From NCBI GenBank assembly GCA_028353405.1, contig JAOMOG010000007.1, positions 755 through 64,754 of the forward strand: a stretch of 64,000 nt of DNA, read 5' to 3'. Positions 34,527 to 46,091 of this stretch are shown here, in pieces (the first letter of the stretch is position 1; the number at the start of each line of letters is the position of its first letter). Under the pieces are notes generated by a model. It had not been told where the DNA came from and did not search any database. It worked only from the letters and a program-made list of their open reading frames with translations. The translations under genes were made by a program, and so were the position numbers. The DNA comes from Candidatus Poseidoniaceae archaeon (GTDB lineage Archaea; Thermoplasmatota; Poseidoniia; Poseidoniales; Poseidoniaceae).

Positions 34527-35648
34527 TCACTGATACATATTTCCAACTGTCTGATAAATTTCAAACTGTTCTGATTCGACGAATACTTGGATGTCTGCGC
34601 CATCCATATTTCCTAATTGGCCATCAACGATGGCAAAGAATGCTGCTCTCAAATCCTCGTCGGCAGATTGTGGGTCACTGCCGACTTCCTGGTATACTTG
34701 GAAATCTGGACTTTCAATAAATTCTGCGACGACATCTTCAGGGAGATTTGAACCCAATAGATCATCGACAATTGATACGAATAAAGTAAAGAGATCTTCT
34801 CCATCGGTTTCTTCTGCTTCCTGTGCAACTACTGATTCTTCCGAAGATGCGATAATTGCTTGCAATTCCTTTCTTTGACCCATTAAAGATTCTAATTGAG
34901 GTCTTAGTTGGGCTAATAACTCAGAATCACCAGAACTTTTTGCCGCTTGGTATTCCGGTTTAAGCGAACGTAATTCATTTTCAATAGCCAATAATTGCTC
35001 AGAAAGGTCCATGTCTTCATCAAGTTCTAGACCAGTGGTTTCCTCATCCATTAATTCAACAGTTGGGGCATCTCTAATTTCTGAAACTTTGTCATCCATT
35101 TGTTGCTTTCTCAATACGATGATGTCGCGGTCTATCGAATGACCAAACCGGTCAGAGTAACGATCCAGCAAAGAACCAGCTTCTGAATTAGCAATGCGAT
35201 CAATGTGTCCGTAAATTTGTGGAAGTGGTTTATCTGAACGCTTTGCCCAAAGGTCACCATAAGATGAGTCTGCTTGCGGTGATGTGGATTCAACCACTGC
35301 AGGAGTTGCTACTGGCAATGGTGCATCCATGACTGGTGCAGCTGGTAGTGGCAATGGTGCATCCATGACTGGTGCAGCTGGTAGTGGCAATGGTGCATCC
35401 ATGACTGGTGCGGGTGGTAGTGGCAATGGTGCGTCCATGACTGGCGCAGGTGGTAGTGGCAATGGTGCGTCCATGACTGGCGCAGGTGGTAGCGGCAATG
35501 GTGCAGGTAATTCTGCATTCATAGCAGGCATAGGTGGCAATTGTGAATCCATGCTTGGCATGGGTGGTAATGCCGGCATTGGAGGTAGAGGAAGTGCTCC
35601 TAATGGTGGCAATTTATTGTCCTTTTTTCCATCATCTTGCTGACTCAT
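34527..35648 (-). CDS. Proline-rich tandem-repeat protein (5-6 copies of PLPLPPAPVMDA) with a C-terminal acidic duplicated domain
   Basis: A 36-nt DNA repeat encodes the 12-aa units. The C-terminal duplication reads (E/D)xxVxxFxESxxFxxYQxVG twice. A GGTGG RBS lies ~10 nt upstream of the start. Confidence 0.45.
   Translation of the reverse strand: MSQQDDGKKDNKLPPLGALPLPPMPALPPMPSMDSQLPPMPAMNAELPAPLPLPPAPVMDAPLPLPPAPVMDAPLPLPPAPVMDAPLPLPAAPVMDAPLPLPAAPVMDAPLPVATPAVVESTSPQADSSYGDLWAKRSDKPLPQIYGHIDRIANSEAGSLLDRYSDRFGHSIDRDIIVLRKQQMDDKVSEIRDAPTVELMDEETTGLELDEDMDLSEQLLAIENELRSLKPEYQAAKSSGDSELLAQLRPQLESLMGQRKELQAIIASSEESVVAQEAEETDGEDLFTLFVSIVDDLLGSNLPEDVVAEFIESPDFQVYQEVGSDPQSADEDLRAAFFAIVDGQLGNMDGADIQVFVESEQFEIYQTVGNMYQ
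35309..35510. repeat. 36-nt tandem repeat array, about 5.5 copies (gctggtagtggcaatggtgcatccatgactggtgca and variants)
   Basis: Directly visible near-identical 36-nt units with a few SNPs, in frame within the CDS at 34527..35648. Confidence 0.8.
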
Positions 35649-35748: not shown

Positions 35749-36948
35749 TTATACGATTTTAGCCCAGCCTTTCAACACCAAAAATGTCGCTCCAGCCTCA
35801 CTTATTTCCAAAATTTGTCCACGCGTTAGATCATATCTTTTATCATGGAATTGTGCAACAGCATCCTCAACTGTAATTTCTACCCGTAACTTTTCTTGAC
35901 CGTTTAGTGCCCAGGCCTCTTGAAGTGGCTTATACGGGTTAGAACCATCCGGGTCCAGACGGTTTAGTGGAAACTCACTTACTCGCATGCCTGTTTTCCC
36001 ATGAAGAGACGTAGGCCATCTAATTTGTCTCCTAGTATCGATAGTAACAACTTCATCAGTTTCTCCCGCATTACCTAGAACTACTGAAGAGTCGGTTTTC
36101 AACAAATTAAGAAATAAACCATCATAGGAACCAAGTGCACCAAAATTACCTTCTCTAATTCTTTTTGAACGTGCTTCATGATTTACCACTTCTGCTAATT
36201 TTTTAATCGATGCAGCGCTTCGTTGCGAAGTTGAGCCTTCTCTATCGTATTGGGATTTGAGACCGTGTTCTAAATCCTTCAATATTGTAGAATAATCTCC
36301 TTGTTTGTTTGAGATAACTTGTAATTTCAAGATCATATCATCAACACCATCTCTAATTCTCCTAGACCATCCATGAGAGTCAGTTTCATTGAAGCGAGAC
36401 ATGCCTCCTTGTACATCAACACCCTCACCACGAATATGCGATACCAATTCTCTTCTTGCTTCAGAATCTAAGTGGAATAAATTAGGGTCGCGGTAGTGTA
36501 AATGAAATCCCCTGTGTCCTGAAAAGGTAACTTGTAAATATTTTTCATCGAATCCGAATTCAGGCTGCAAGAAATCGTTCCAAAGACTCCACCCTTGTTC
36601 CTGAATCACACCTAGCATGGCGGGGAAGTCTCTATCGGTTACGCCTGGCAAATGGTCACCATCTAGGTCAAATATCAAATCAGCACCTTGCCAGAGTTTG
36701 TCAGCCATTTTCAGCTCATATGGTCTTTTCCAATATGCAGTTGAGTAGAAACAAGAATGCATTGCTCTTTCCGATAGAAATGACCTAACATCTTGCATAT
36801 CGGTGAAACCTTTGTGTCTAATTGGAGGTGAGCCTCCAAAGGGAATAAACATCCACTCTCTTGACTTTAATCGCGGAGGGGTCCAGAATTCAGATGTACG
36901 ATAATATTGTCCAAAACGATGTGCGAATCGGGCCCAACCAGTTGACAT
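35749..36948 (-). CDS. priS: DNA primase small (catalytic) subunit PriS
   Basis: REWMF and ADLIFDLDGDH provide the catalytic Asp motif of the Prim-Pol fold. The size is ~400 aa. Confidence 0.7.
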   Translation of the reverse strand: MSTGWARFAHRFGQYYRTSEFWTPPRLKSREWMFIPFGGSPPIRHKGFTDMQDVRSFLSERAMHSCFYSTAYWKRPYELKMADKLWQGADLIFDLDGDHLPGVTDRDFPAMLGVIQEQGWSLWNDFLQPEFGFDEKYLQVTFSGHRGFHLHYRDPNLFHLDSEARRELVSHIRGEGVDVQGGMSRFNETDSHGWSRRIRDGVDDMILKLQVISNKQGDYSTILKDLEHGLKSQYDREGSTSQRSAASIKKLAEVVNHEARSKRIREGNFGALGSYDGLFLNLLKTDSSVVLGNAGETDEVVTIDTRRQIRWPTSLHGKTGMRVSEFPLNRLDPDGSNPYKPLQEAWALNGQEKLRVEITVEDAVAQFHDKRYDLTRGQILEISEAGATFLVLKGWAKIV

Positions 36949-37003: not shown

Positions 37004-37213
37004 TCATTCTTTCTGCATCCAAAATCTTCCTTCGGATTCATTGATAGTAGTTGATGTATCTGCGCCGGTTGCTTCAACATAATGTTCCCAGCACATGTAA
37101 TACTTGTCAACTACCATCGCATTTCCAAAAGTTAAACGTTCTCCACATTTGTGACATCGCGGACCGATTTCACCATTTGGAGTCTGGGCCAGTTGTATGT
37201 GTTCGTGTGGCAT
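37004..37213 (-). CDS. Small zinc-ribbon protein (69 aa)
   Basis: CHKCG...CWEH suggests a C2-CH zinc knuckle. It lies directly downstream of priS on the same strand. Confidence 0.3.
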   Translation of the reverse strand: MPHEHIQLAQTPNGEIGPRCHKCGERLTFGNAMVVDKYYMCWEHYVEATGADTSTTINESEGRFWMQKE

Positions 37214-37272: not shown

Positions 37273-37761
37273 TCACCAAGAAGTATCTTCCCATTCTGCT
37301 GTTTGACACCAATTTAGTAAATCCAATGCAACTTCACATGATTCTGCAACTTCTATATTTTCATCATTAAGAAATTCCTCTAGAATCGGTTTTGCCGAAT
37401 CATCACCAATAGCACCCATTGCCTCAGCAGCCTCATGCCTAACCATGATGTGTTCTTCTAGATCGCTCAATCGCTCAATCAAAGTAGGGATGGCAACAAC
37501 ATTTTGCATCTGTCCAAGAACATAGGCTAATTCATGACGTAAAAGAGCACTCTTTGTGGTAAAGGCTGAACATAATGCTAAGCAAGCCTCATCTGTACCA
37601 TTATTTCTTAGCGAAAAAACAGCCCTCATTCGCAGAAACATCTGATTGCTTTCATCCAAGAGGCTAATTTTTAGCGTTTCAACATCCTTTTCACTAGAAG
37701 GGGGTGCTGGATCGACTGAACCATATTGGCTAACAACCGGCGCCCTATCCACAATATCCAT
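37273..37761 (-). CDS. HEAT-repeat protein resembling one half of deoxyhypusine hydroxylase (two His-Glu motifs)
   Basis: ALLRHELAYVLGQMQN and HIMVRHEAAEAMGAIGD are two HE-containing HEAT repeats, matching the DOHH/PBS-lyase E-Z type. It is 162 aa, about half the length of eukaryotic DOHH. Confidence 0.5.
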   Translation of the reverse strand: MDIVDRAPVVSQYGSVDPAPPSSEKDVETLKISLLDESNQMFLRMRAVFSLRNNGTDEACLALCSAFTTKSALLRHELAYVLGQMQNVVAIPTLIERLSDLEEHIMVRHEAAEAMGAIGDDSAKPILEEFLNDENIEVAESCEVALDLLNWCQTAEWEDTSW

Positions 37762-37773
37762 TTAATCACCTTT

Positions 37774-38688
37774 TCATTCAGGAGAGCCAATAAACTTCAT
37801 GCTACTGGTATCGAAAGTCGAATCTATGAGTCCAAGTTCTTGCCCTTCCTTGATGAATTGACGTACCGCAGAACGACCCTCGTCCTCATAATCAATCGTT
37901 CTATTATTTACATACATAGAAACAAATTCCTTATTTGTTTCATCATCAATTCCTCTACCCCATGCCTTGGCAAATTCAAGGGCGTCAGCAGGGTGCGCAA
38001 TAGCATGTTCAATGCTCATTTTTGTGTACAAAGTGATATCCTCCATCACTTGTTGACCTAAATCTCTTCTAACGACATTACCACCAAGGGGCATCGGCCA
38101 GCCATCGGTTCGATCATTCCACCAAACACCTAAATCCAACAGGACATTCAAGTCATGTTCAACGTAAGTTAATTGGCCCTCATGGATAATTAATCCGGAC
38201 ATAAATGTACCATCTAGGACTCTAGGAATTATTTCATCAAAGGGTACTACTTCAACTTGGCAATCTCCCCACGCCAACCTCAAACCAAGGTAAGCACTAG
38301 TTTTCATACCTGGTACTGCGATTATATTGGAGCGCACATCATCTTCAGAAACCCCTTGCATTGAAACGACCATCGGACCATATCCTTCCCCCATCGAAGC
38401 ACCACAGTTCATCAAAGCATAGTGTTGTGAAATTTCAGGATAAGCGTGAATAGAGACCGCAGAAACTTCAAGTTCTTGTTTCATGGCTCTGTGGTTGAGA
38501 GTTTCAATATCTTGTAGTTCATGTACGAAATTATAGCCAGGAGTAGGAAAAGCTCCTGTTGTCATTGCGTGGAACATAAAAGCATCATCCGGATCTGGTG
38601 AATGTCCAATACGGACCACCTTATTACCTTCAGCGTCTAGTGGCAACTCAGTGTGCATAATGCGTCCGACCAAGATACCCTTCATCAA
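37774..38688 (-). CDS. mqnD: 1,4-dihydroxy-6-naphthoate synthase (MqnD, MqnA/MqnD family)
   Basis: RIGHSPDPDDAFMF resembles the MqnD SPCPNDTF motif (VitK2_biosynth family). It clusters with mqnA and a radical-SAM mqnC/E. Confidence 0.6.
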   Translation of the reverse strand: MMKGILVGRIMHTELPLDAEGNKVVRIGHSPDPDDAFMFHAMTTGAFPTPGYNFVHELQDIETLNHRAMKQELEVSAVSIHAYPEISQHYALMNCGASMGEGYGPMVVSMQGVSEDDVRSNIIAVPGMKTSAYLGLRLAWGDCQVEVVPFDEIIPRVLDGTFMSGLIIHEGQLTYVEHDLNVLLDLGVWWNDRTDGWPMPLGGNVVRRDLGQQVMEDITLYTKMSIEHAIAHPADALEFAKAWGRGIDDETNKEFVSMYVNNRTIDYEDEGRSAVRQFIKEGQELGLIDSTFDTSSMKFIGSPE

Positions 38689-38733: not shown

Positions 38734-41088
38734 ATGATGATTCGGGGGGTTTTTCACCGAGATGTTTTCAAACCATATGCTTTCAGCAAATTGAGGGCGC
38801 ATATGCTACGAAGCCGAATAATTGATTTCCAATTCTCATCCATAGCGATGTTGTTGTTAATTATTCTCGTTCCAGCAACTACTGCTACATCATCTGGGCT
38901 ATCTTATGCAGGCGGACTCTCAAACCCCTCAGAAGTATCAAATAGCCAATCAGTGGACATTAATTATGACAACACATTGTTAGCGACTGGATATAACGGA
39001 GTACTAACAATCCATAGTATTGAAGACAATTCATTAATAGCAAGTTTTGAATTGATTAGGCAAATTGTTGATTTGAAATTTTCTCCCGACGGATTGACAT
39101 TAGCACTATCGTTAATCGGTTCAGAAGTCCGTACTGATAATATTCAATTGATTGATGTTGAAAGCCTCCAATTAATAACAAATGTCAATAGTAATTCTAA
39201 CTCTGAAACAAAATCTATTTCTTGGAGCCCTGATAGTACTATTCTGGCAGTTCCTAATTCGGACAAAGGTGTAGATCTATTGAGAAAGTCTGACCTAAGT
39301 ATTGAGGTGAGTTTGTCTAGTGGACATAATACTGATGTGTCTTGTATTGCCTTTTCAACTGATGGCAACATGGTGCTAACCGGTGATGAATCAGGACGAG
39401 TGTTGACATGGGATCGGCTAGGCAACCCTACAGGAAAACAGTGGGACTTGGATAGCGAAGTTGTAGGTTGTGGCTTTGATAGCGAAGACTTGAGGATAGG
39501 TCTACTGAGTGAAAATGGAAGGTTGAAAACTGTGGATCCAAATGGAGGTGCAATTAATCAGAGTGACTTTATTTCGGGAAGTGGAATGTTATGGTCTAGT
39601 GATGGAACTTACATTCACATTATAGAATCTAGTACCCAATCAAAGATTATTACCATCGAGGCCTCTACATTTTTAGTCAAGGAAGAGACGATATTATTCC
39701 ATCGCGCATCAGATTTTGCAGTTATTGAAAACTCAAACTTTTTGCCAGAGAAAATATTTGTCACCTCAGATACCCAAAATATTGCCATATACGGCTCGCC
39801 CGTATTACCAATTGGATACGGTGAAAATGGTGCAGATTTAGATGGAGACGGTGTTCCTGATCATTTAGATGATGATGACGATGGAGATTCTATTTCAGAT
39901 GATTGGGACATCAATTGTGTTTCAAGTGCTGAGGAGTGTTCAAACGTTCCAAAACAAGATGATATTAGAAATCTAAATATTTGGATTAACCAAACTACAT
40001 TAGAACTTGAAGATGTAATTACATTAAATTCTCAACAATCATCCCTCATTAGAAACATGTCTCGCAAATCCGTTATCGCAGACCAGCAATTAAGCCATTC
40101 CGAAGCAGTTAGGTTCTCCAACTCTGTTTGTGAGAACATGGACACTGCTGATTTCATTGACTCGTGGAAGGCTGCGATTGAATTATCTGTAGGTCAGGTG
40201 GAAAATGGATACGTTAGTTGTAATATTAGAAGTGGAATGATATTAACTGAGGTAGACGATGAAAGAACAAGAATAAAGATCGTATTGAAGGTTTCATTTA
40301 CACTGTTCCCAGATGCGCGCTATCCACTTCAATTATCACTCATGTATCAGCCAGAGGCAACTGATGGTTCAATAGCCAATTTAGCTGAAGCGCACCCAAT
40401 TCATGTTGTTCTAGACGGAGAACGTGGACTACCAGTTTCATGGAGTCCATGGTGGGTTGAAGAAAATAAAATTAATTTACAACTGATAGAGGATATTCCT
40501 CCCAAGCCCACAATGCTAGAAACTTTTGTCAAAATCACCATCGAATATCCATGGATTGCAATATTCGCTATCTTGATGCTAACCGCATCAGCATTAACCT
40601 ATATTAGAACAAGAAATGCTAGTAATGTTGATTTAGAATTTGCATTTGATGACTTTGATGACATCCCTGAAGGAACTAAAGAGAATGAATTTGAGGAAGA
40701 GGAAGAGGAAGAAGAATCATTGACCCATGAGGAATTAATGAGAAAGCGGCAGATAAAAAGAAAAATTGGCCGCAAAAAGTCACAACCTAGTGAGGCTGTT
40801 TCGCAAAACGAATCAGAATCTACCATCGGTGGCTTTTACGACGATGAAGATGATATTGCACCTGTGGTTGTACGGAGAAGGTCTGGTAGTGTTAAACGAA
40901 GTCGTGACGGCACCGCTGTGACGGGAAAGCGTACTACATTGAGTTCTATAAGCGAACAGACTGCTCCAGTTATTGCTAAGAAAGTATCAACTAAGAAACC
41001 AGTCATCAAAACCCGCAGAGTCGTTACTGGGCAAAACGATAATCAAGTAATGGATGATGCTCTTGATCGTTTGACTAACAGTGATTGA
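38734..41088 (+). CDS. Large secreted or membrane-anchored beta-propeller (WD40-like) protein with a TSP3-like DxDxDG calcium motif, a C-terminal TM and a charged tail
   Basis: N-terminal hydrophobic segment IAMLLLIILVPATTA. Repeated SPDG / TGDESGRVLTWD propeller-like blades. DLDGDGVPDHLDDDDDGD. A TM segment WIAIFAILMLTASALTYI. The tail reads EEEEEEEE...KRQIKRKIGRKK. Confidence 0.5.
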   Translation: MMIRGVFHRDVFKPYAFSKLRAHMLRSRIIDFQFSSIAMLLLIILVPATTATSSGLSYAGGLSNPSEVSNSQSVDINYDNTLLATGYNGVLTIHSIEDNSLIASFELIRQIVDLKFSPDGLTLALSLIGSEVRTDNIQLIDVESLQLITNVNSNSNSETKSISWSPDSTILAVPNSDKGVDLLRKSDLSIEVSLSSGHNTDVSCIAFSTDGNMVLTGDESGRVLTWDRLGNPTGKQWDLDSEVVGCGFDSEDLRIGLLSENGRLKTVDPNGGAINQSDFISGSGMLWSSDGTYIHIIESSTQSKIITIEASTFLVKEETILFHRASDFAVIENSNFLPEKIFVTSDTQNIAIYGSPVLPIGYGENGADLDGDGVPDHLDDDDDGDSISDDWDINCVSSAEECSNVPKQDDIRNLNIWINQTTLELEDVITLNSQQSSLIRNMSRKSVIADQQLSHSEAVRFSNSVCENMDTADFIDSWKAAIELSVGQVENGYVSCNIRSGMILTEVDDERTRIKIVLKVSFTLFPDARYPLQLSLMYQPEATDGSIANLAEAHPIHVVLDGERGLPVSWSPWWVEENKINLQLIEDIPPKPTMLETFVKITIEYPWIAIFAILMLTASALTYIRTRNASNVDLEFAFDDFDDIPEGTKENEFEEEEEEEESLTHEELMRKRQIKRKIGRKKSQPSEAVSQNESESTIGGFYDDEDDIAPVVVRRRSGSVKRSRDGTAVTGKRTTLSSISEQTAPVIAKKVSTKKPVIKTRRVVTGQNDNQVMDDALDRLTNSD

Positions 41089-41886
41089 TTACCAACAGAA
41101 TTGGGCACCGGCAGTCAGTTCACATGCTTCTATCAAAAATTGGTTCAATCCGGCTAGATGGTCATCATCAAGTCTATTGAATACCTCTCCGAAATATCGG
41201 TCCAATCTCTCGTAAGATAATTCAGAACGGCTAATGGACCAATTGATTACAGCATCTCTTTGTTCAGAACTGGTCTCGAAAAGAGCCAACTTTGACTCAA
41301 GAGCGTTGTGTGCTGCAATTATCATTTCTTTAGGAGTGTCAATTCTAGCTGCGAAGACCCCGAAAACCATCGGTTTTCCTGATTTCTCTAGCCATGCTTG
41401 CCCTAAGTCTAATTGTACCATTGAAGGATACTCTTTTGCACTCTCTAGTGCTCTATCTCCAATCAGTAGTGCTCCATCACAATTATCTAGCATCAAATCA
41501 AAATCTGGACCCATTTGGGTCAAAGTTGGATTCAATCCCTTGATCTTCAAAAGATGCTTCAAAAGTGCTACCGATGTTGCCGAATCAGAAGGCAAAGCAA
41601 TAGATTCCATTTTTTCTAATTTCTTGTTTGAAAATAATAGTACACTACCGACTTCACCCTTAGAACAAATACCAATATCCGGAATTAATATTAATTCGTC
41701 AGCATGTTTTGCATAATCGGCAGCAGGGATTGGCGCTAGTACACAATCTCTGCGTAGCAAATGACCAGTTAACCATGAAGGTGGTGCTGGTAAAACATTC
41801 CATGTTTCATCAAGACCATAGAATAAAGGGTCACAATTGAGAAAGGAAACACGACCGATTGTCCTCGTCCAACCATGGGTCGCCAT
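41089..41886 (-). CDS. mqnA: Chorismate dehydratase (MqnA), futalosine pathway
   Basis: IGRVSFLNCDPLFYGL resembles the MqnA N-terminal motif. The size is 265 aa, and it is adjacent to the radical-SAM mqn gene. Confidence 0.6.
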   Translation of the reverse strand: MATHGWTRTIGRVSFLNCDPLFYGLDETWNVLPAPPSWLTGHLLRRDCVLAPIPAADYAKHADELILIPDIGICSKGEVGSVLLFSNKKLEKMESIALPSDSATSVALLKHLLKIKGLNPTLTQMGPDFDLMLDNCDGALLIGDRALESAKEYPSMVQLDLGQAWLEKSGKPMVFGVFAARIDTPKEMIIAAHNALESKLALFETSSEQRDAVINWSISRSELSYERLDRYFGEVFNRLDDDHLAGLNQFLIEACELTAGAQFCW

Positions 41887-41937: not shown

Positions 41938-43146
41938 TTATTGGGCCATTTTCAAACCGCGTATTGGCTTTGGAGTTGGGGCAATGAATCTTTCAAATCG
42001 TTCATATGTTGTATTCCTCTTTACAGGAATACATCCAGCATTTTCAATCAATTTAGACAATTTACTCAAATCATGATCTAACGGCGCAGTGGAGCCTGCT
42101 AAATGCATAATAGATTCCTTTTGTACCGTTCCATCAATATCATCAGCACCGAACTGTAATGCTAATTCCGCTAACCCATCACCAATATTCATTCGATATG
42201 CCTTGATATGCGGTATAGAGTCAAGCATTAACCTTGAAACTGCAATGGTTCGTAATACTTCAGTTCCTGTAGCACATTGAGCTTCAGGCAGCCTGGATGA
42301 ATCAGGCAAGAACGGATATGGCACAAAACACTGAAACCCTCCAGTTTCGTCAGCCAATTTGCGCAATTTATCCATGTGGATTAGACGATGCCTTAGCGTT
42401 TCAACTGTTCCAAATAGCATGGTACAATTTGAAGGCAAGCCGATTTGATGAGCGGTTCTATGAATCTCCAAGTACTCCTCAGAACTCTCTTTCCCATTAC
42501 AGATTATTGCCCTGACCCCATCATCTAATATTTCTGCACCCCCACCAGGTAAACTACCAAGTCCTGCATCCTTCAGTATCGTCAAAACCTCTCTGTAAGA
42601 CATACTAGACAACTGTGAAAGATGTTTTATTTCAACTGCTGTCAATGCTTTAATTGTGATATGAGGGAATTTCTCGCTTACTGTTTTGAATAAGTCTCGA
42701 TAATGGTAAACATCCCAATCCGGATGTAATCCTCCGACTGAATGAACTTCATCAACATATTCTGCATAATTCGACAAATCATCAACATATGCCTCAATGT
42801 CCAGTGAATAAGCGTCAGCAGATTTCTTACTTCTTCTAAAGGCACAAAAGCGACATGCTAAGACACAAACATTAGTTTGATTCACATGTACATTCGAATT
42901 AAAAAATGCAAAGTTTTCAAAACGTGATTTACGGACAAAATCAGCTAACCTGCCCACTTCGTTAAGATTCTGATGATGATATAGGATCAATCCATCCTCA
43001 ATACTCAATCTCTCCCCTAAGGCAACCTTCTCAGCGATCGGAGTGATTGTTTCACTCCACTGCTCGGATTCTAATGATTCGGCTAGCCTCTGTTGCCAGT
43101 CATTCTGGCAACCTGCAAGTAACTGAGATGATGACCACTGTTGCAT
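41938..43146 (-). CDS. Radical SAM menaquinone biosynthesis enzyme (MqnC or MqnE family)
   Basis: CVLACRFCAF is the CxxxCxxC cluster motif. The size is 402 aa and the gene clusters with mqnA. I cannot distinguish MqnC from MqnE by eye. Confidence 0.65.
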   Translation of the reverse strand: MQQWSSSQLLAGCQNDWQQRLAESLESEQWSETITPIAEKVALGERLSIEDGLILYHHQNLNEVGRLADFVRKSRFENFAFFNSNVHVNQTNVCVLACRFCAFRRSKKSADAYSLDIEAYVDDLSNYAEYVDEVHSVGGLHPDWDVYHYRDLFKTVSEKFPHITIKALTAVEIKHLSQLSSMSYREVLTILKDAGLGSLPGGGAEILDDGVRAIICNGKESSEEYLEIHRTAHQIGLPSNCTMLFGTVETLRHRLIHMDKLRKLADETGGFQCFVPYPFLPDSSRLPEAQCATGTEVLRTIAVSRLMLDSIPHIKAYRMNIGDGLAELALQFGADDIDGTVQKESIMHLAGSTAPLDHDLSKLSKLIENAGCIPVKRNTTYERFERFIAPTPKPIRGLKMAQ

Positions 43147-43163
43147 AATTATTTCACCTTCAA

Positions 43164-46091
43164 TTATGCTCTTTTCTTACCGATTGCAAACACTCGAGAA
43201 TAGACAAGGAATTTTCTAAATTCTTCAGCGATAAATACTCCTGATGCGACAGCCATTATTATCAGCCAATCCTTCCCTTCTAGTTCAATTGTAGATAATA
43301 GTGAACCAACCTGGACATTGAGAATAGGTATGACTTCAGACGAGTTATGAATTATTAGCCATAGTAGTGAGAACGATATCACAACTGCATAATTTATTGC
43401 TTTGTTAGAGAATAGTCCCAATTTGAAAACACTATCCTCGCTACTTCGGCAATTCATTACATTGAATAATTGGAATACTACGAAAACTGCGAATGTCATT
43501 GTTTGGGCATAAACGAATCTATCTTCTGAATAACTCTCCCAGTCTTCTATTGCTGCAGAATCTCCAACCAAGCACGCATTGCGGTCAAAGTGCTGAGATA
43601 AATCCTCCTCGGTAAATGGTAGTCCATCACAGACCTCAACTCCTCCACCAGCAAGGAAGAAAATTATGAGAGTTCCCGTTACCATGACAATTCCAAGATA
43701 GAATATTAATGCAATATCAGAAAGACTCGGTAATCCTTCCTGAACTGGACGCGGCGGCCTATTCATCACGCTTCCATGCTTCTTTTCAACACCAAGTGCA
43801 ACCGCGGGAGGGCCATCCATTAGGATATTGATTACCAATATTTGAGTAGCTGTAAGTGGTAAATTCCAGCCAAATATGAATGTAGAGACAATGATTAATG
43901 CTACAGCAGCAACATTTGTTGAAATCTGGTATCTTACAAAGTTTCGAATGTTTTGATAAATTTTTCTTCCTTCTTCTATGGCAGATACAATATTTGCAAA
44001 GTTATCATCCTGTAAAACCATGTCAGAAGCGTCCTTTGCAACATCTGTACCCGCTATTCCCATTGAGATACCAATATTTGCCCGTGATAATGCTGGCGCA
44101 TCATTTACTCCATCTCCTGTCATTGCAACAATTTCACCATTTTCCTGTAAAGATGAAACTATCCGCATCTTTTGATCTGGTGTCACGCGAGAGAATATGC
44201 TTGTATCGCCACACACATCTATCATTTCTTCATCAGTGTAATTGGATAACTGATGGCCATTTACCGCTGGAACTATCCCATCTGTAATATTTAATTCCAA
44301 ACCTATTGCATTAGCGGTAATTTGCTGATCTCCAGTAATCATCTTTACCTTTATTCCAGCTCTTTGGCAAATTGCGATTGCCTCTTCCACTTCGGGGCGC
44401 GGAGGATCCATTATTCCAACTAGTCCCAAGTAAATGAATCCAGACTCTATCTTAGTTACATCATCAATATTTTCATCATCACCCATCTTTCTAGCACACA
44501 ATGCTAATACGCGCATTGCTTTCGATGCCATGTCCTTATTGGACTCGACTGCACTATCAAAATCAGATTGCCCGATTGGTTGAATCTTTCCATCTAGTAT
44601 TTTTCTATCGACTAAAGTCTTGTATCCGCCTGCTCCACCCTTAGAGAATATCCATTTTTCACCCTCGTATTCATGAATAACTGTCATTCTCTTTCTAACG
44701 GAGTCAAAAAAGAACTCATGGATACGTGGATGACGTTGTGCGAATTTCTTTACATCGCCATTGATTTTCCACCCTGCGACAGCACAAGCAGAATCCGTTG
44801 GATCTCCTATCGCCTGCCATCTCCCATCAACCTTTGAAATTTGAGAATTGTGACATAATGCCAAACATGCGGCTGTTAATCTGAAACCAAGGTCATTTTG
44901 TAATGACGACATTTCCGTATCGGAGACATTTGAGCCTTCTTTCATCAAAGTTCCTTCTGGTTTGAATCCGTTTCCAGAGATGTCGAATTTTCCAAAAGAG
45001 GTGCTTATTTGACGAGCAGTCATTTGGTTTTTAGTTAAAGTACCTGTTTTATCTGAACAAATAACAGTGGTTGAACCGAGAGTTTCCACTGCCTTCATTC
45101 TCCTAATAATCGCCTTATGTTGAGCCATGTTTCGCATTCCTAGAGCTAGAGTGATTACCAAAATAATTGGTAAACCCTCAGGAACAATTGCAACGAAAAT
45201 CGCCACAGCGACCATGAATTGTTCTAATGCTGCATCCCAAATGTCAATATTTGGATCACCATAAGCGATTAGCATTTTTAGTGACACTAAGAGAAATGCT
45301 ACTATTAGAGCAACAAATCCAAGGAATTTTCCTAACGATTCTAATTTCATTTCCAAAGGAGTTGGAGGGGATTTACTACCGACAATATCTGTTGCGATTC
45401 TGCCTAACTCGGTTTTCATACCCGTTTCAACAACAATACCAACCGCTCTCCCAGTTGCGACACAAGTGCCCATATAAGCCATGTTTATTCTTTCTGCAAG
45501 TATCGTATCATTATCACAGACATTCGGATTTTTCCTAACAGTGTGAGATTCTCCGGTTAGAGCCGACTCATCGATTTTGCATTGGAATGCTTCTATTATT
45601 CTTATATCAGCTGGTACATTCAAACCTCCTTCCAACTTTACAATATCACCAGGAACCAATTCTTGTGTAGATATTTCTACATCAATCCCCTCACGAATGA
45701 CAACACATTGAGAAACAGACATTTGTTTCAGTGCATCCATTGCTTGCTCAGCTTGACCTTCTTGCCAAAATCCGAATACTGCATTTGCCGTTAGAACAAT
45801 AAAAATGAATATTGCATCTCCAGAATTATGCCCCGGTAATGCTAGTGCAACTAAAGCTGCTGCGATTAACAAATAGTTGAGAGGATCGTGATACTGAGAT
45901 AAAAACCTCATTATAGCAGATGTTTTGACAGGTTCTTGTAATTTATTAAAACCATATTTCTCTTGCCTTTCGCTAACTTCAGAAGGCAATAAACCATCTA
46001 AATTAGTATCTAATTCAAGTAAAATATCAGTAGTTTCAAGGTCATGCCAAGTAGTTGTAGACATAGTATTCACCTTGAATGCAAGAATCAT
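43164..46091 (-). CDS. P-type ATPase, type IIA/IIB (Ca2+-transporting)
   Basis: Phosphorylation motif CSDKTGTLT, plus TGES, MITGD and the GDGVNDAPAL hinge. There are 10 TM segments. The likely true start is an internal Met near 46064. Confidence 0.9.
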   Translation of the reverse strand: MILAFKVNTMSTTTWHDLETTDILLELDTNLDGLLPSEVSERQEKYGFNKLQEPVKTSAIMRFLSQYHDPLNYLLIAAALVALALPGHNSGDAIFIFIVLTANAVFGFWQEGQAEQAMDALKQMSVSQCVVIREGIDVEISTQELVPGDIVKLEGGLNVPADIRIIEAFQCKIDESALTGESHTVRKNPNVCDNDTILAERINMAYMGTCVATGRAVGIVVETGMKTELGRIATDIVGSKSPPTPLEMKLESLGKFLGFVALIVAFLLVSLKMLIAYGDPNIDIWDAALEQFMVAVAIFVAIVPEGLPIILVITLALGMRNMAQHKAIIRRMKAVETLGSTTVICSDKTGTLTKNQMTARQISTSFGKFDISGNGFKPEGTLMKEGSNVSDTEMSSLQNDLGFRLTAACLALCHNSQISKVDGRWQAIGDPTDSACAVAGWKINGDVKKFAQRHPRIHEFFFDSVRKRMTVIHEYEGEKWIFSKGGAGGYKTLVDRKILDGKIQPIGQSDFDSAVESNKDMASKAMRVLALCARKMGDDENIDDVTKIESGFIYLGLVGIMDPPRPEVEEAIAICQRAGIKVKMITGDQQITANAIGLELNITDGIVPAVNGHQLSNYTDEEMIDVCGDTSIFSRVTPDQKMRIVSSLQENGEIVAMTGDGVNDAPALSRANIGISMGIAGTDVAKDASDMVLQDDNFANIVSAIEEGRKIYQNIRNFVRYQISTNVAAVALIIVSTFIFGWNLPLTATQILVINILMDGPPAVALGVEKKHGSVMNRPPRPVQEGLPSLSDIALIFYLGIVMVTGTLIIFFLAGGGVEVCDGLPFTEEDLSQHFDRNACLVGDSAAIEDWESYSEDRFVYAQTMTFAVFVVFQLFNVMNCRSSEDSVFKLGLFSNKAINYAVVISFSLLWLIIHNSSEVIPILNVQVGSLLSTIELEGKDWLIIMAVASGVFIAEEFRKFLVYSRVFAIGKKRA

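What the first reader, a model, noticed from the sequence alone, without database searches (positions are those of the whole stretch)
37273..37761. Half-size deoxyhypusine hydroxylase-like HEAT protein
The 162-aa protein contains two consecutive HEAT hairpins, each carrying a His-Glu dyad (LLRHELAYVLGQMQ and MVRHEAAEAMGAIGD). This closely resembles one symmetric half of eukaryotic DOHH, which uses four HE motifs to bind a di-iron centre. A homodimer of this half protein could recreate the site. If so, it would be a candidate for eIF5A hypusine hydroxylation, or a related hydroxylase, in an archaeon. It would also be a plausible evolutionary precursor of the duplicated eukaryotic enzyme. It sits between priS and mqnD and has no obvious operon partners.
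Basis: partly seen in the sequence, partly recalled or inferred. Interest (0 to 1): 0.6.

Follow-up and report, generated by a model that had tools for sequence, protein, structure and literature searches.

The report
Half-size archaeal deoxyhypusine hydroxylase homologue
Marine Group II archaea carry a conserved gene for one half of the eukaryotic two-iron enzyme that completes the hypusine modification of translation factor 5A, an enzyme the hypusine literature says archaea lack; two copies of the half could rebuild its active site.

Summary
The ORF is real: 37273..37761, minus strand, 162 aa, with His-Glu dyads at H76-E77 and H109-E110. It is a specific homologue of deoxyhypusine hydroxylase (DOHH), not a generic PBS-lyase HEAT protein. 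Human DOHH (4D4Z) is the top PDB hit by sequence (6.7e-69; profile 1.1e-95) and by fold (TM 0.82-0.84 over one half). Natural PBS-type HEAT proteins score only 1e-2 to 1e-8.

The host is a Candidatus Poseidoniaceae (Marine Group II) archaeon. The 159-162 aa protein is conserved across both families of the order. Its metal-ligand and substrate-binding residues are invariant, and dN/dS is about 0.15.

It is equidistant from the N and C halves of eukaryotic DOHH (C-minus-N HMM score +1.4 bits, against -30 and +32 for real halves). It therefore split from them at or near the internal duplication.

The gene is the second cistron after mqnD in 125 of 125 loci, inside a futalosine/menaquinone cluster.

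Best reading: a homodimeric di-iron hydroxylase acting on deoxyhypusinated aIF5A. Dimerisation, iron binding and substrate are untested. Databases auto-label it DOHH, but no paper searched discusses it, and reviews state that archaea have no DOHH homologue.

The parts
37273..37761 (-). CDS of the half-size (162 aa, four HEAT hairpins) DOHH homologue; identical to GenBank MDC0340813.1, 'HEAT repeat domain-containing protein [Candidatus Poseidoniaceae archaeon]'
37699..37740 (-). N-terminal arm, residues 8-21 (P-x-V-S-Q-Y-G-S-V-D-P-A-P-P), nearly invariant in archaeal orthologues; it aligns with the inter-domain linker motif of eukaryotic DOHH (human 144-158)
37531..37536 (-). His-Glu dyad 1 (H76-E77), equivalent to human H56-E57 / H207-E208; by homology H76 is an Fe ligand and E77 binds the deoxyhypusine amine
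   Evidence: residue roles from PMC9117371
37432..37437 (-). His-Glu dyad 2 (H109-E110), equivalent to human H89-E90 / H240-E241; by homology both are Fe ligands
   Evidence: residue roles from PMC9117371
37762..37773 (-). 12-nt intercistronic spacer AAAGGTGATTAA holding a Shine-Dalgarno-like GGTGAT; in orthologous loci the gap is -1 to 12 nt, often with GAGG/GGTGA overlapping the mqnD stop codon
37774..38688 (-). Upstream cistron: VitK2_biosynth (MqnA/MqnD family, mqnD by KEGG naming), directly upstream on the same strand in 125 of 125 loci that have upstream sequence
41089..41886 (-). Second VitK2_biosynth gene (mqnA-like), part of the surrounding futalosine cluster
41938..43146 (-). Radical-SAM MqnE/MqnC-type futalosine-pathway gene, part of the surrounding cluster
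37004..37213 (-). Downstream 69-aa zinc-ribbon-like ORF. It travels with priS rather than with the DOHH gene: in MGIIb the ORF and priS lie on the other strand
35749..36948 (-). priS (DNA primase small subunit), a co-directional downstream neighbour in MGIIa only

Best explanation
The gene encodes a single-domain orthologue of deoxyhypusine hydroxylase. It has four HEAT hairpins, and each chain carries one 2-His-1-Glu iron half-site (H76, H109, E110) plus the substrate-amine-binding Glu (E77) and Gly (G83).

Proposed mechanism, inferred rather than shown: two chains associate about a two-fold axis, as the N and C halves of the eukaryotic enzyme do. This brings two Fe half-sites together into an O2-activating di-iron centre. 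The centre hydroxylates the deoxyhypusine side chain that deoxyhypusine synthase has placed on aIF5A, giving true hypusine in these aerobic surface-ocean archaea. The invariant N-terminal arm corresponds to the eukaryotic inter-domain linker and probably clasps the partner subunit.

The gene is co-transcribed and translationally coupled with mqnD. In evolutionary terms the protein separated from the eukaryotic lineage at or very near the duplication that produced the two-domain enzyme.

Shown: homology, fold, residue conservation, purifying selection, order-wide distribution, operon structure, and equidistance to both halves. Inferred: dimerisation, iron binding, substrate, and the direction of descent.
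For: DOHH-specific similarity by sequence: 4D4Z at 6.7e-69, both halves matched at about 48-50% identity; profile search 1.1e-95.

DOHH-specific similarity by fold: AF2 pLDDT 91.7; Foldseek top hit 4D4Z at E 1.5e-11, TM 0.82-0.84 over about 145 residues.

Residue conservation: all residues reported as Fe ligands or deoxyhypusine-binding in human DOHH (PMC9117371) have invariant equivalents in 43 of 43 orthologues. The archaeal consensus keeps 36 of 38 positions conserved at 70% or more in eukaryotic N halves, and 45 of 50 in C halves. That is as many as the two eukaryotic halves share with each other, which argues for the same macromolecular substrate.

Equidistance: the C-minus-N HMM score is +1.4 +/- 2.4 bits, against -29.5 and +31.6 for held-out real halves. 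The NJ tree places the archaeal clade centrally in 157 of 300 bootstraps, against 15 inside C and 8 inside N.

Selection and distribution: dN/dS 0.14-0.17. Orthologues occur in both Poseidoniaceae and Thalassarchaeaceae.

Pathway partner: deoxyhypusine synthase is present in 97% and 99% of MGIIa and MGIIb MAGs, and the DOHH-labelled cluster in 75% and 78%, similar to neighbouring mqnD at 78% and 82% (PMC6336850 supplement). aIF5A is reported in all archaeal genomes (PMC6105217).
Against: No direct evidence for dimerisation, iron binding or activity. The tandem-fusion dimer mimic could only be run without an alignment and gave pLDDT 51.

The gene's only invariant partner is mqnD, inside a futalosine cluster, not any translation or polyamine gene.

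The modification state of MGII aIF5A is unknown. Archaea known to contain hypusine, such as Sulfolobus, lack this gene.

Neither aIF5A nor DHS was seen in the window or in about 1.2 Mb of held MGII loci, so their presence rests on the literature.

Four close relatives of the window gene carry frameshifts at three different sites, which hints at dispensability.

The equidistance could in principle reflect re-symmetrisation of a truncated half under homodimer constraints.
Confidence: 0.6

Rival explanations
1. A DOHH-derived iron oxygenase that has been recruited to another substrate linked to menaquinone (futalosine-pathway) metabolism, for example hydroxylation of a naphthoquinone intermediate or of a modified quinone. 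Its expression would be coupled to mqnD.
For: mqnD is directly upstream on the same strand in 125 of 125 loci, with a -1 to 12 nt gap and an SD-like spacer. The pair survives the rearrangement that separates priS from it in MGIIb, where it is flanked by mqnA and a MqnE/C radical-SAM gene.
Against: From my own knowledge, the known futalosine pathway has no unassigned hydroxylation step, and no Mqn enzyme is a HEAT protein. All conserved positions of eukaryotic DOHH are retained, including the residues that bind the deoxyhypusine amine; that is not expected after a switch to a hydrophobic small molecule. Synteny within a single order of compact genomes is weak functional evidence. In MGIIa the same transcription direction continues into priS, which is unrelated to quinones.
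Confidence: 0.15
2. An evolutionary rival, compatible with the same biochemistry. The gene is the C-terminal half of a two-domain eukaryotic DOHH, including its linker, acquired by horizontal transfer into the Poseidoniales ancestor, truncated, and then re-symmetrised. On this reading it is not a pre-duplication form.
For: The N-terminal arm SVDPAPP is shared only with the eukaryotic linker and C half: it is present in the linker of 69 of 96 eukaryotic sequences and never at their N terminus. Identity is slightly higher to C halves (47%) than to N halves (43%). Among archaea the family was found only in Poseidoniales, a lineage known for extensive HGT (PMC4122925).
Against: No residual C-half signature: the C-minus-N HMM score is +1.4 bits against +31.6 for real C halves. 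The archaeal consensus shares 4 of 5 N-specific and 4 of 6 C-specific states. The archaeal clade falls inside the C cluster in only 15 of 300 NJ bootstraps. GC and GC3 are native.
Confidence: 0.25
3. A monomeric mononuclear non-haem iron enzyme. A single chain would use H76, H109 and E110 as a 2-His-1-carboxylate triad without pairing into a di-iron site.
For: Each chain supplies exactly two His and one Glu ligand, which is formally a facial-triad set. No evidence for dimerisation was obtained.
Against: In the solved homologue each such triad works only as half of a di-iron centre sandwiched between two HEAT layers (PMC9117371; PMC9040561). In a lone four-repeat domain the site would be fully exposed on the helical face. 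No co-substrate site of the 2-oxoglutarate kind is evident.
Confidence: 0.06
4. A generic, non-catalytic PBS-lyase-type HEAT scaffold whose HE dyads occur by chance.
For: Pfam recognises only HEAT_2 and HEAT_PBS. NCBI names the protein 'HEAT repeat domain-containing protein' or 'PBS lyase'.
Against: NblB and CpcE models score 30 and 22 bits against cut-offs of 300 and 330. DOHH outscores natural PBS-type HEAT proteins by more than 60 orders of magnitude. The HE dyads and other DOHH-specific motifs are invariant. Giant generic HEAT arrays that also hit the query lack the RHE motif.
Confidence: 0.02

Closest known systems
Eukaryotic deoxyhypusine hydroxylase / monooxygenase (human DOHH, PDB 4D4Z/4D50; yeast Lia1; Drosophila nero; EC 1.14.99.29)
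   Same: Same HEAT-hairpin fold (Foldseek TM 0.82-0.84). About 43-50% identity to each half. Identical HE-dyad motifs (LL[RK]HE.AY.LGQMQ and MVRHEAAEA.GAIG), with Fe-ligand and deoxyhypusine-binding residues conserved. The linker motif SVDPAPP is present. Deoxyhypusine synthase is present in the same organisms.
   Different: Four HEAT hairpins and two HE dyads per chain, against eight and four, so it must oligomerise to form a di-iron site. Archaeal rather than eukaryotic. Encoded as the second cistron of an mqnD operon. Equidistant from the N and C halves rather than belonging to either. Activity untested.
PBS-lyase HEAT-like repeat proteins (CpcE/CpcF, NblB, E. coli YibA, Methanothermobacter MTH187, and the designed alphaRep proteins derived from them)
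   Same: Same Pfam repeat type (HEAT_PBS/HEAT_2), similar size for the small members, and the generic 'VR..AA.ALG.IGD' repeat consensus.
   Different: They have no HE dyads and no metal site. Natural members score only 1e-2 to 1e-8 against the query or its profile, and NCBIfam lyase models score about a tenth of their cut-offs. No phycobiliprotein context.
Other hydroxylases of the EF-P/IF5A modification arm (bacterial EpmC/YfcM) and di-iron hydroxylases of quinone synthesis (Coq7)
   Same: These are functional analogies only: an O2-dependent final hydroxylation of the elongation-factor side chain (EpmC), and a di-iron hydroxylase encoded with quinone-biosynthesis genes (Coq7).
   Different: Unrelated folds and no sequence similarity. 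They are cited from my own knowledge as what the protein might 'work like' under the main and the rival reading.

Membership tests
Deoxyhypusine hydroxylase (DOHH, EC 1.14.99.29) | All-alpha HEAT-hairpin fold that superposes on solved DOHH | tested here: met
   AF2 pLDDT 91.7, pTM 0.84. Foldseek top hits are 4d4z_A and 4d4z_B at E 1.5e-11, TMq 0.82-0.84, 48-49% identity.
Deoxyhypusine hydroxylase (DOHH, EC 1.14.99.29) | Sequence similarity specific to DOHH rather than to HEAT repeats in general | tested here: met
   4D4Z at 6.7e-69 with both halves matched. Profile search 1.1e-95 against 5e-8 or weaker for natural PBS-type HEAT proteins. In a 1.84-billion-protein library the best hits are two-domain proteins of about 300 aa; the named ones are eukaryotic DOHH/nero.
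Deoxyhypusine hydroxylase (DOHH, EC 1.14.99.29) | [quoted passage not shown] | tested here: not met
   Only four hairpins and two HE dyads per 162-aa chain. No upstream or second half in the window. The full set would exist only in a dimer.
Deoxyhypusine hydroxylase (DOHH, EC 1.14.99.29) | Fe ligands (His, His, Glu per iron) and deoxyhypusine-binding Glu/Gly residues conserved | tested here: met
   H76, E77, G83, H109 and E110 are invariant in 43 of 43 orthologues and in both eukaryotic halves.
Deoxyhypusine hydroxylase (DOHH, EC 1.14.99.29) | Binds two Fe per active unit and forms a peroxo-diiron(III) intermediate | not testable with these tools
   Needs purified protein. Multimer modelling was not available, and the tandem mimic was uninformative.
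Deoxyhypusine hydroxylase (DOHH, EC 1.14.99.29) | Hydroxylates deoxyhypusine on IF5A | not testable with these tools
The modification state of MGII aIF5A is unknown.
Deoxyhypusine hydroxylase (DOHH, EC 1.14.99.29) | Co-occurs with deoxyhypusine synthase and IF5A in the same genomes | tested here: inconclusive
   Neither gene is in the window or in the held loci. Literature: DHPS in 97% and 99% of MGIIa/IIb MAGs (PMC6336850 supplement); aIF5A in all archaeal genomes.
PBS-lyase HEAT-like proteins (CpcE/F, NblB) | Reaches the curated family score for a lyase or NblB model | tested here: not met
   NblB scores 30.4 bits (cut-off 300), CpcE 22 (330), CpeY 15.4 (600).
Futalosine-pathway (Mqn) enzymes | Homology to a known Mqn enzyme family | tested here: not met
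   The protein matches only HEAT families. The link is gene adjacency alone.

The most novel reading that the evidence does not exclude
Poseidoniales retain a living single-domain form of DOHH that diverged at or before the internal duplication of the eukaryotic enzyme. It works as a C2 homodimer in which each subunit contributes one 2-His-1-Glu iron half-site. It would then be the first archaeal deoxyhypusine hydroxylase, it would mean MGII aIF5A carries true hypusine, and it would be a natural model of how a di-iron oxygenase arose from a HEAT protein-binding scaffold by dimerisation followed by gene fusion.
Probability: 0.4. Interest if true: 0.85.

Novelty: new variant of a known kind. Interest (0 to 1): 0.7.

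Why it matters
Hypusine papers from 2016, 2018 and 2020 state that no DOHH homologue exists in any archaeal genome, and that archaeal hypusine formation is therefore unsolved. Here is a clear homologue that is a core gene of one of the most abundant archaeal groups in the surface ocean.

Three things follow.

- It gives a cloneable candidate for an archaeal hydroxylation step, at least in this lineage.
- Its half-size architecture tests the idea that the DOHH di-iron site is simply two mononuclear half-sites brought together. It also supplies the dimer-before-fusion intermediate implied by accounts of DOHH as an oxidase that emerged from a non-enzymatic HEAT scaffold.
- Its equidistance from both eukaryotic halves bears on when and where the eukaryotic hypusine pathway was completed.

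The limits are real. MGII are uncultured. The archaea known to make hypusine do not have this gene. Annotation pipelines already label it DOHH, so the homology call itself is not new.

Tried and rejected
1. Dimer modelling. The single-sequence fusion ran but gave pLDDT 51 and pTM 0.35, so it was not used.

2. Looking for aIF5A and DHS. Motif scans of the window and tblastn of remembered M. jannaschii aIF5A, human eIF5A and human DHS sequences against all held loci found nothing. These cover only about 1.2 Mb of flanks, so they say nothing about the genomes.

3. Looking for half-size relatives outside Poseidoniales.
- The representative library shows one half-size cluster (P0222) among the best 150, but weaker single-domain hits are pushed off the list by two-domain eukaryotic proteins.
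- The genome and metagenome scans return only close MGII relatives.
- IMG/VR has none.
Absence elsewhere is therefore not established.

4. Strict monophyly of the N and C clades in the first NJ run was spoiled by three rogue proteins. These were removed. No ML or outgroup-rooted tree could be made.

5. Park 2006 (PNAS), Kim 2006 (JBC) and Wolff 2007 (Amino Acids) are not held. I could not check whether half-size prokaryotic relatives were mentioned there.

6. The reading of this protein as a generic PBS-lyase HEAT protein was rejected.

7. A missing N-terminal half through frameshift or mis-called start was rejected. The mqnD stop codon lies 12 nt upstream, and the 159-162 aa length is conserved in hundreds of sequences.

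Full report
**Observation**

The window holds an ATG-started ORF at 37273..37761 on the minus strand. His-Glu dyads lie at H76-E77 and H109-E110, inside the quoted strings LLRHELAYVLGQMQ and MVRHEAAEAMGAIGD.

The stop codon of the upstream gene is 12 nt before the ATG. The spacer reads AAAGGTGATTAA and contains a Shine-Dalgarno-like GGTGAT. There is therefore no room for a lost N-terminal half. An HMM of the family finds no second copy in the 64-kb window.

The gene behaves as a native, selected gene:
- GC 0.413 and GC3 0.294 resemble its neighbours.
- dN/dS against the two closest orthologues is 0.17 and 0.14.
- 125 of 129 full-length copies in the 131 held loci are intact; two more are cut by contig ends.

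**What it is**

Pfam sees only generic HEAT_2 and HEAT_PBS repeats. NCBIfam phycobilin-lyase and NblB models reach about a tenth of their cut-offs.

Against PDB sequences the picture is specific.
- Human deoxyhypusine hydroxylase (4D4Z) is first at 6.7e-69.
- The query aligns separately to its N half (chain residues 8-139, 1e-29) and to its C half (144-285, 1.3e-35).
- The C-half alignment extends through the inter-domain linker, where archaeal YGSVDPAPP matches human YLSVDPAPP.
- Natural PBS-type HEAT proteins (CpcE, MTH187, YibA) score 1.5e-3 to 1e-2.
- With a 43-sequence family profile, DOHH scores 1.1e-95 and those proteins 5e-8 to 4e-5.
- The designed alphaRep proteins in between are many-repeat consensus HEAT constructs without HE dyads.

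An AlphaFold2 model built on the family alignment is confident (pLDDT 91.7, pTM 0.84) and shows four helical hairpins. Foldseek against the PDB ranks 4D4Z first, at E 1.5e-11, TM 0.82-0.84 normalised to the query and 0.47 to the target. The model therefore covers one half of the enzyme.

**Host and distribution**

- The exact protein is GenBank MDC0340813.1 from a Candidatus Poseidoniaceae archaeon.
- Close homologues of 160-162 aa come from Poseidoniaceae (MGIIa) MAGs.
- A 159-aa clade at about 55-59% identity comes from Thalassarchaeaceae (MGIIb).
- In a library of 1.84 billion representatives, the only half-size cluster among the best 150 hits is this one. The others are two-stretch proteins of about 300 aa, or giant HEAT arrays that lack the RHE motif.
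- The two-stretch proteins that carry names are eukaryotic DOHH (Catenaria, Pythium, beetle 'nero', EukProt). That the unnamed ones are also eukaryotic is my inference.
- Whether weaker half-size relatives exist in other prokaryotes could not be determined.

**Conservation**

In 43 orthologues spanning both families, 53 positions are invariant. They include:
- H76, E77, Y80 and G83-Q84-M85-Q86;
- M106-V107-R108-H109-E110-A111-A112-E113-A114;
- E140-S141-C142;
- the N-terminal arm P8, S11, S15 and D17-P18-A19-P20.

According to the review PMC9117371, human H56, H89, E90, H207, H240 and E241 anchor the di-iron centre. The same review names E57, E90, E208, E241 and two glycines as binding the deoxyhypusine side chain. 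Every one of these has an invariant archaeal equivalent.

The archaeal consensus is identical at 36 of 38 positions conserved at 70% or more in eukaryotic N halves. It is identical at 45 of 50 such positions in C halves. The two eukaryotic halves share no more than that with each other.

**Relation to the two eukaryotic halves**

All figures below are over 123 shared core columns.

| Comparison | Identity |
|---|---|
| Archaeal halves vs N halves | 43% |
| Archaeal halves vs C halves | 47% |
| N vs C halves | 38% |
| N vs N halves | 41% |
| C vs C halves | 48% |

HMMs were trained on 60 eukaryotic N halves and 60 C halves and then scored on held-out sequences:

| Sequences scored | C-minus-N score (bits) |
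|---|---|
| Held-out N halves | -29.5 +/- 5.4 |
| Held-out C halves | +31.6 +/- 4.3 |
| 26 archaeal sequences | +1.4 +/- 2.4 |

At half-specific signature positions the archaeal consensus shares 4 of 5 N-specific states and 4 of 6 C-specific states.

A neighbour-joining analysis used Kimura-corrected distances and 300 bootstraps, with three rogue proteins removed. It places the archaeal clade at the centre, between the N and C clusters, in 157 replicates. It falls inside C in 15 and inside N in 8, and is not monophyletic in 76.

The rigorous reading is that the archaeal lineage separated at or very soon after the duplication. With three clades and no reliable outgroup, topology alone cannot separate 'before' from 'just after'.

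The SVDPAPP arm is shared with the linker and C half and never occurs at eukaryotic N termini. This fits either an ancestral arm that became the linker after fusion, or a truncated C half.

**Genomic context**

- The upstream gene is a VitK2_biosynth (MqnA/MqnD family) protein.
- In 45 of 46 GTDB Poseidoniales loci the order is mqnD, half-DOHH, a 69-aa zinc-ribbon ORF, then priS; the 46th contig ends before the last two. The mqnD-to-DOHH gap is -1 to 12 nt wherever starts are called cleanly.
- In MGIIb the priS and zinc-ribbon pair lies inverted on the other side, yet mqnD and the half-DOHH remain abutted. They are followed by convergent mqnA and a radical-SAM MqnE/C gene.
- Across all 131 held loci, mqnD is directly upstream on the same strand in 125 of the 125 that have upstream sequence.
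- The window itself also carries the mqnA-like gene (41089..41886) and the MqnE/C-like gene (41938..43146).

The gene is thus the second cistron of an mqnD operon inside a futalosine cluster. I treat this as real evidence for co-expression and as the basis of a rival functional reading. I weight that rival low for three reasons. All observations come from one order with compact genomes. The known futalosine pathway, from my own knowledge, has no unassigned hydroxylation. And the protein retains the full DOHH residue set.

**Pathway partners**

Neither aIF5A nor deoxyhypusine synthase lies in the window or the held loci. The MGII pangenome table of Tully 2019 (PMC6336850, supplementary file 12) lists gene presence as follows:

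| Gene | MGIIa MAGs | MGIIb MAGs |
|---|---|---|
| DHPS (deoxyhypusine synthase) | 0.97 | 0.99 |
| DOHH (deoxyhypusine monooxygenase) | 0.75 | 0.78 |
| mqnD | 0.78 | 0.82 |

The DOHH frequency is almost the same as that of its neighbour mqnD. aIF5A is reported in all archaeal genomes (PMC6105217).

**What is known**

- Automated pipelines already call this protein DOHH: JGI 'deoxyhypusine monooxygenase', and GenBank AIF21061.1 'putative deoxyhypusine monooxygenase (DOHH)' from the 2014 fosmid study.
- NCBI calls it a HEAT-repeat protein or PBS lyase.
- Neither the fosmid paper nor the MGII genomics papers discuss it.
- No paper in the library combines DOHH or hypusine with MGII terms, and a search pairing DOHH with Asgard/Heimdallarchaeota terms or with 'archaeal DOHH' found no report of an archaeal DOHH.
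- The hypusine literature states that no archaeal DOHH homologue has been found (PMC5178350, PMC6105217, PMC7432094).
[quoted passage not shown] A single-layer homodimeric form is the intermediate that account implies.

**Mechanism and confidence**

| Claim | Confidence |
|---|---|
| The protein is a genuine DOHH-family member in the homology sense | >0.95 |
| It forms a di-iron site by homodimerisation | ~0.75 |
| Its substrate is deoxyhypusinated aIF5A | ~0.6-0.65 |
| It represents a pre- or peri-duplication lineage rather than a re-symmetrised truncated C half | ~0.6 |

It fails one defining feature of the eukaryotic family, eight repeats and four HE motifs in one chain. I therefore file it as a new variant of a known kind, not as an ordinary member.

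**A caution**

Four close relatives of the window gene (90-96% identity: L043, L044, L078, L083) carry single-base indels at three different positions. One of these is in a T6 run. Many 78-aa fragment calls of the same gene exist in public data. These may be assembly errors (L044 has 0.5x coverage). They may instead be true inactivations, which would echo the dispensability of DOHH in yeast noted.

Noticed in passing
L043:10001-10487, L044:2985-3469, L078:1112-1596, L083:4001-4485 (orthologues of window 37273..37761): Four copies 90-96% identical to the window gene carry single-base indels at three different sites: +C at nt 192, -G at nt 210, and -T in a T6 run at nt 143 (twice). Public gene calls include many 78-aa fragments starting at M85. 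These are either assembly errors or recurrent pseudogenisation in this clade.
   Followed up: partly
window 34527..35648 (-): A 373-aa protein with about five tandem proline-rich 'PLPLP(P/A)APVMDA' repeats followed by an acidic, internally duplicated C-terminal region. It has no Pfam match and has homologues in 42 of 46 related loci.
   Followed up: no
window 38734..41088 (+): A 784-aa protein with an N-terminal signal/TM segment, a WD40 beta-propeller, a late TM helix and a highly charged tail. It is inserted on the opposite strand between mqnA and mqnD. A homologue is present in only 16 of 46 related loci and is absent from the MGIIb arrangement.
   Followed up: partly
window 37004..37213 (-): A 69-aa zinc-ribbon-like ORF (CxxC ... 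CxEH) with no family match. It is conserved in 45 of 46 loci and stays next to priS when the block is rearranged in MGIIb, so it is probably a primase-associated small protein.
   Followed up: partly
L041 (NZEQ01000006.1, labelled Verrucomicrobiales bacterium ARS100): This contig carries the archaeal priS, the zinc-ribbon ORF, mqnD and the half-DOHH block in MGII order. It is almost certainly a mis-binned Poseidoniales contig in a bacterial MAG.
   Followed up: partly
window 43164..46091 (-): A 975-aa P-type ATPase that scores best against eukaryote-type PMR1/SERCA Ca2+-ATPase models (664 and 567 bits, below the equivalog cut-offs). It lies next to the futalosine genes.
   Followed up: no
window 41089..41886 (-), 41938..43146 (-), 37774..38688 (-): A futalosine-pathway (menaquinone) cluster of two VitK2_biosynth genes and a MqnE/C-type radical-SAM gene. 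NCBIfam has no model that recognises either VitK2_biosynth protein, and the radical-SAM protein falls just below the MqnE cut-off (418.8 bits against 434.55).
   Followed up: partly
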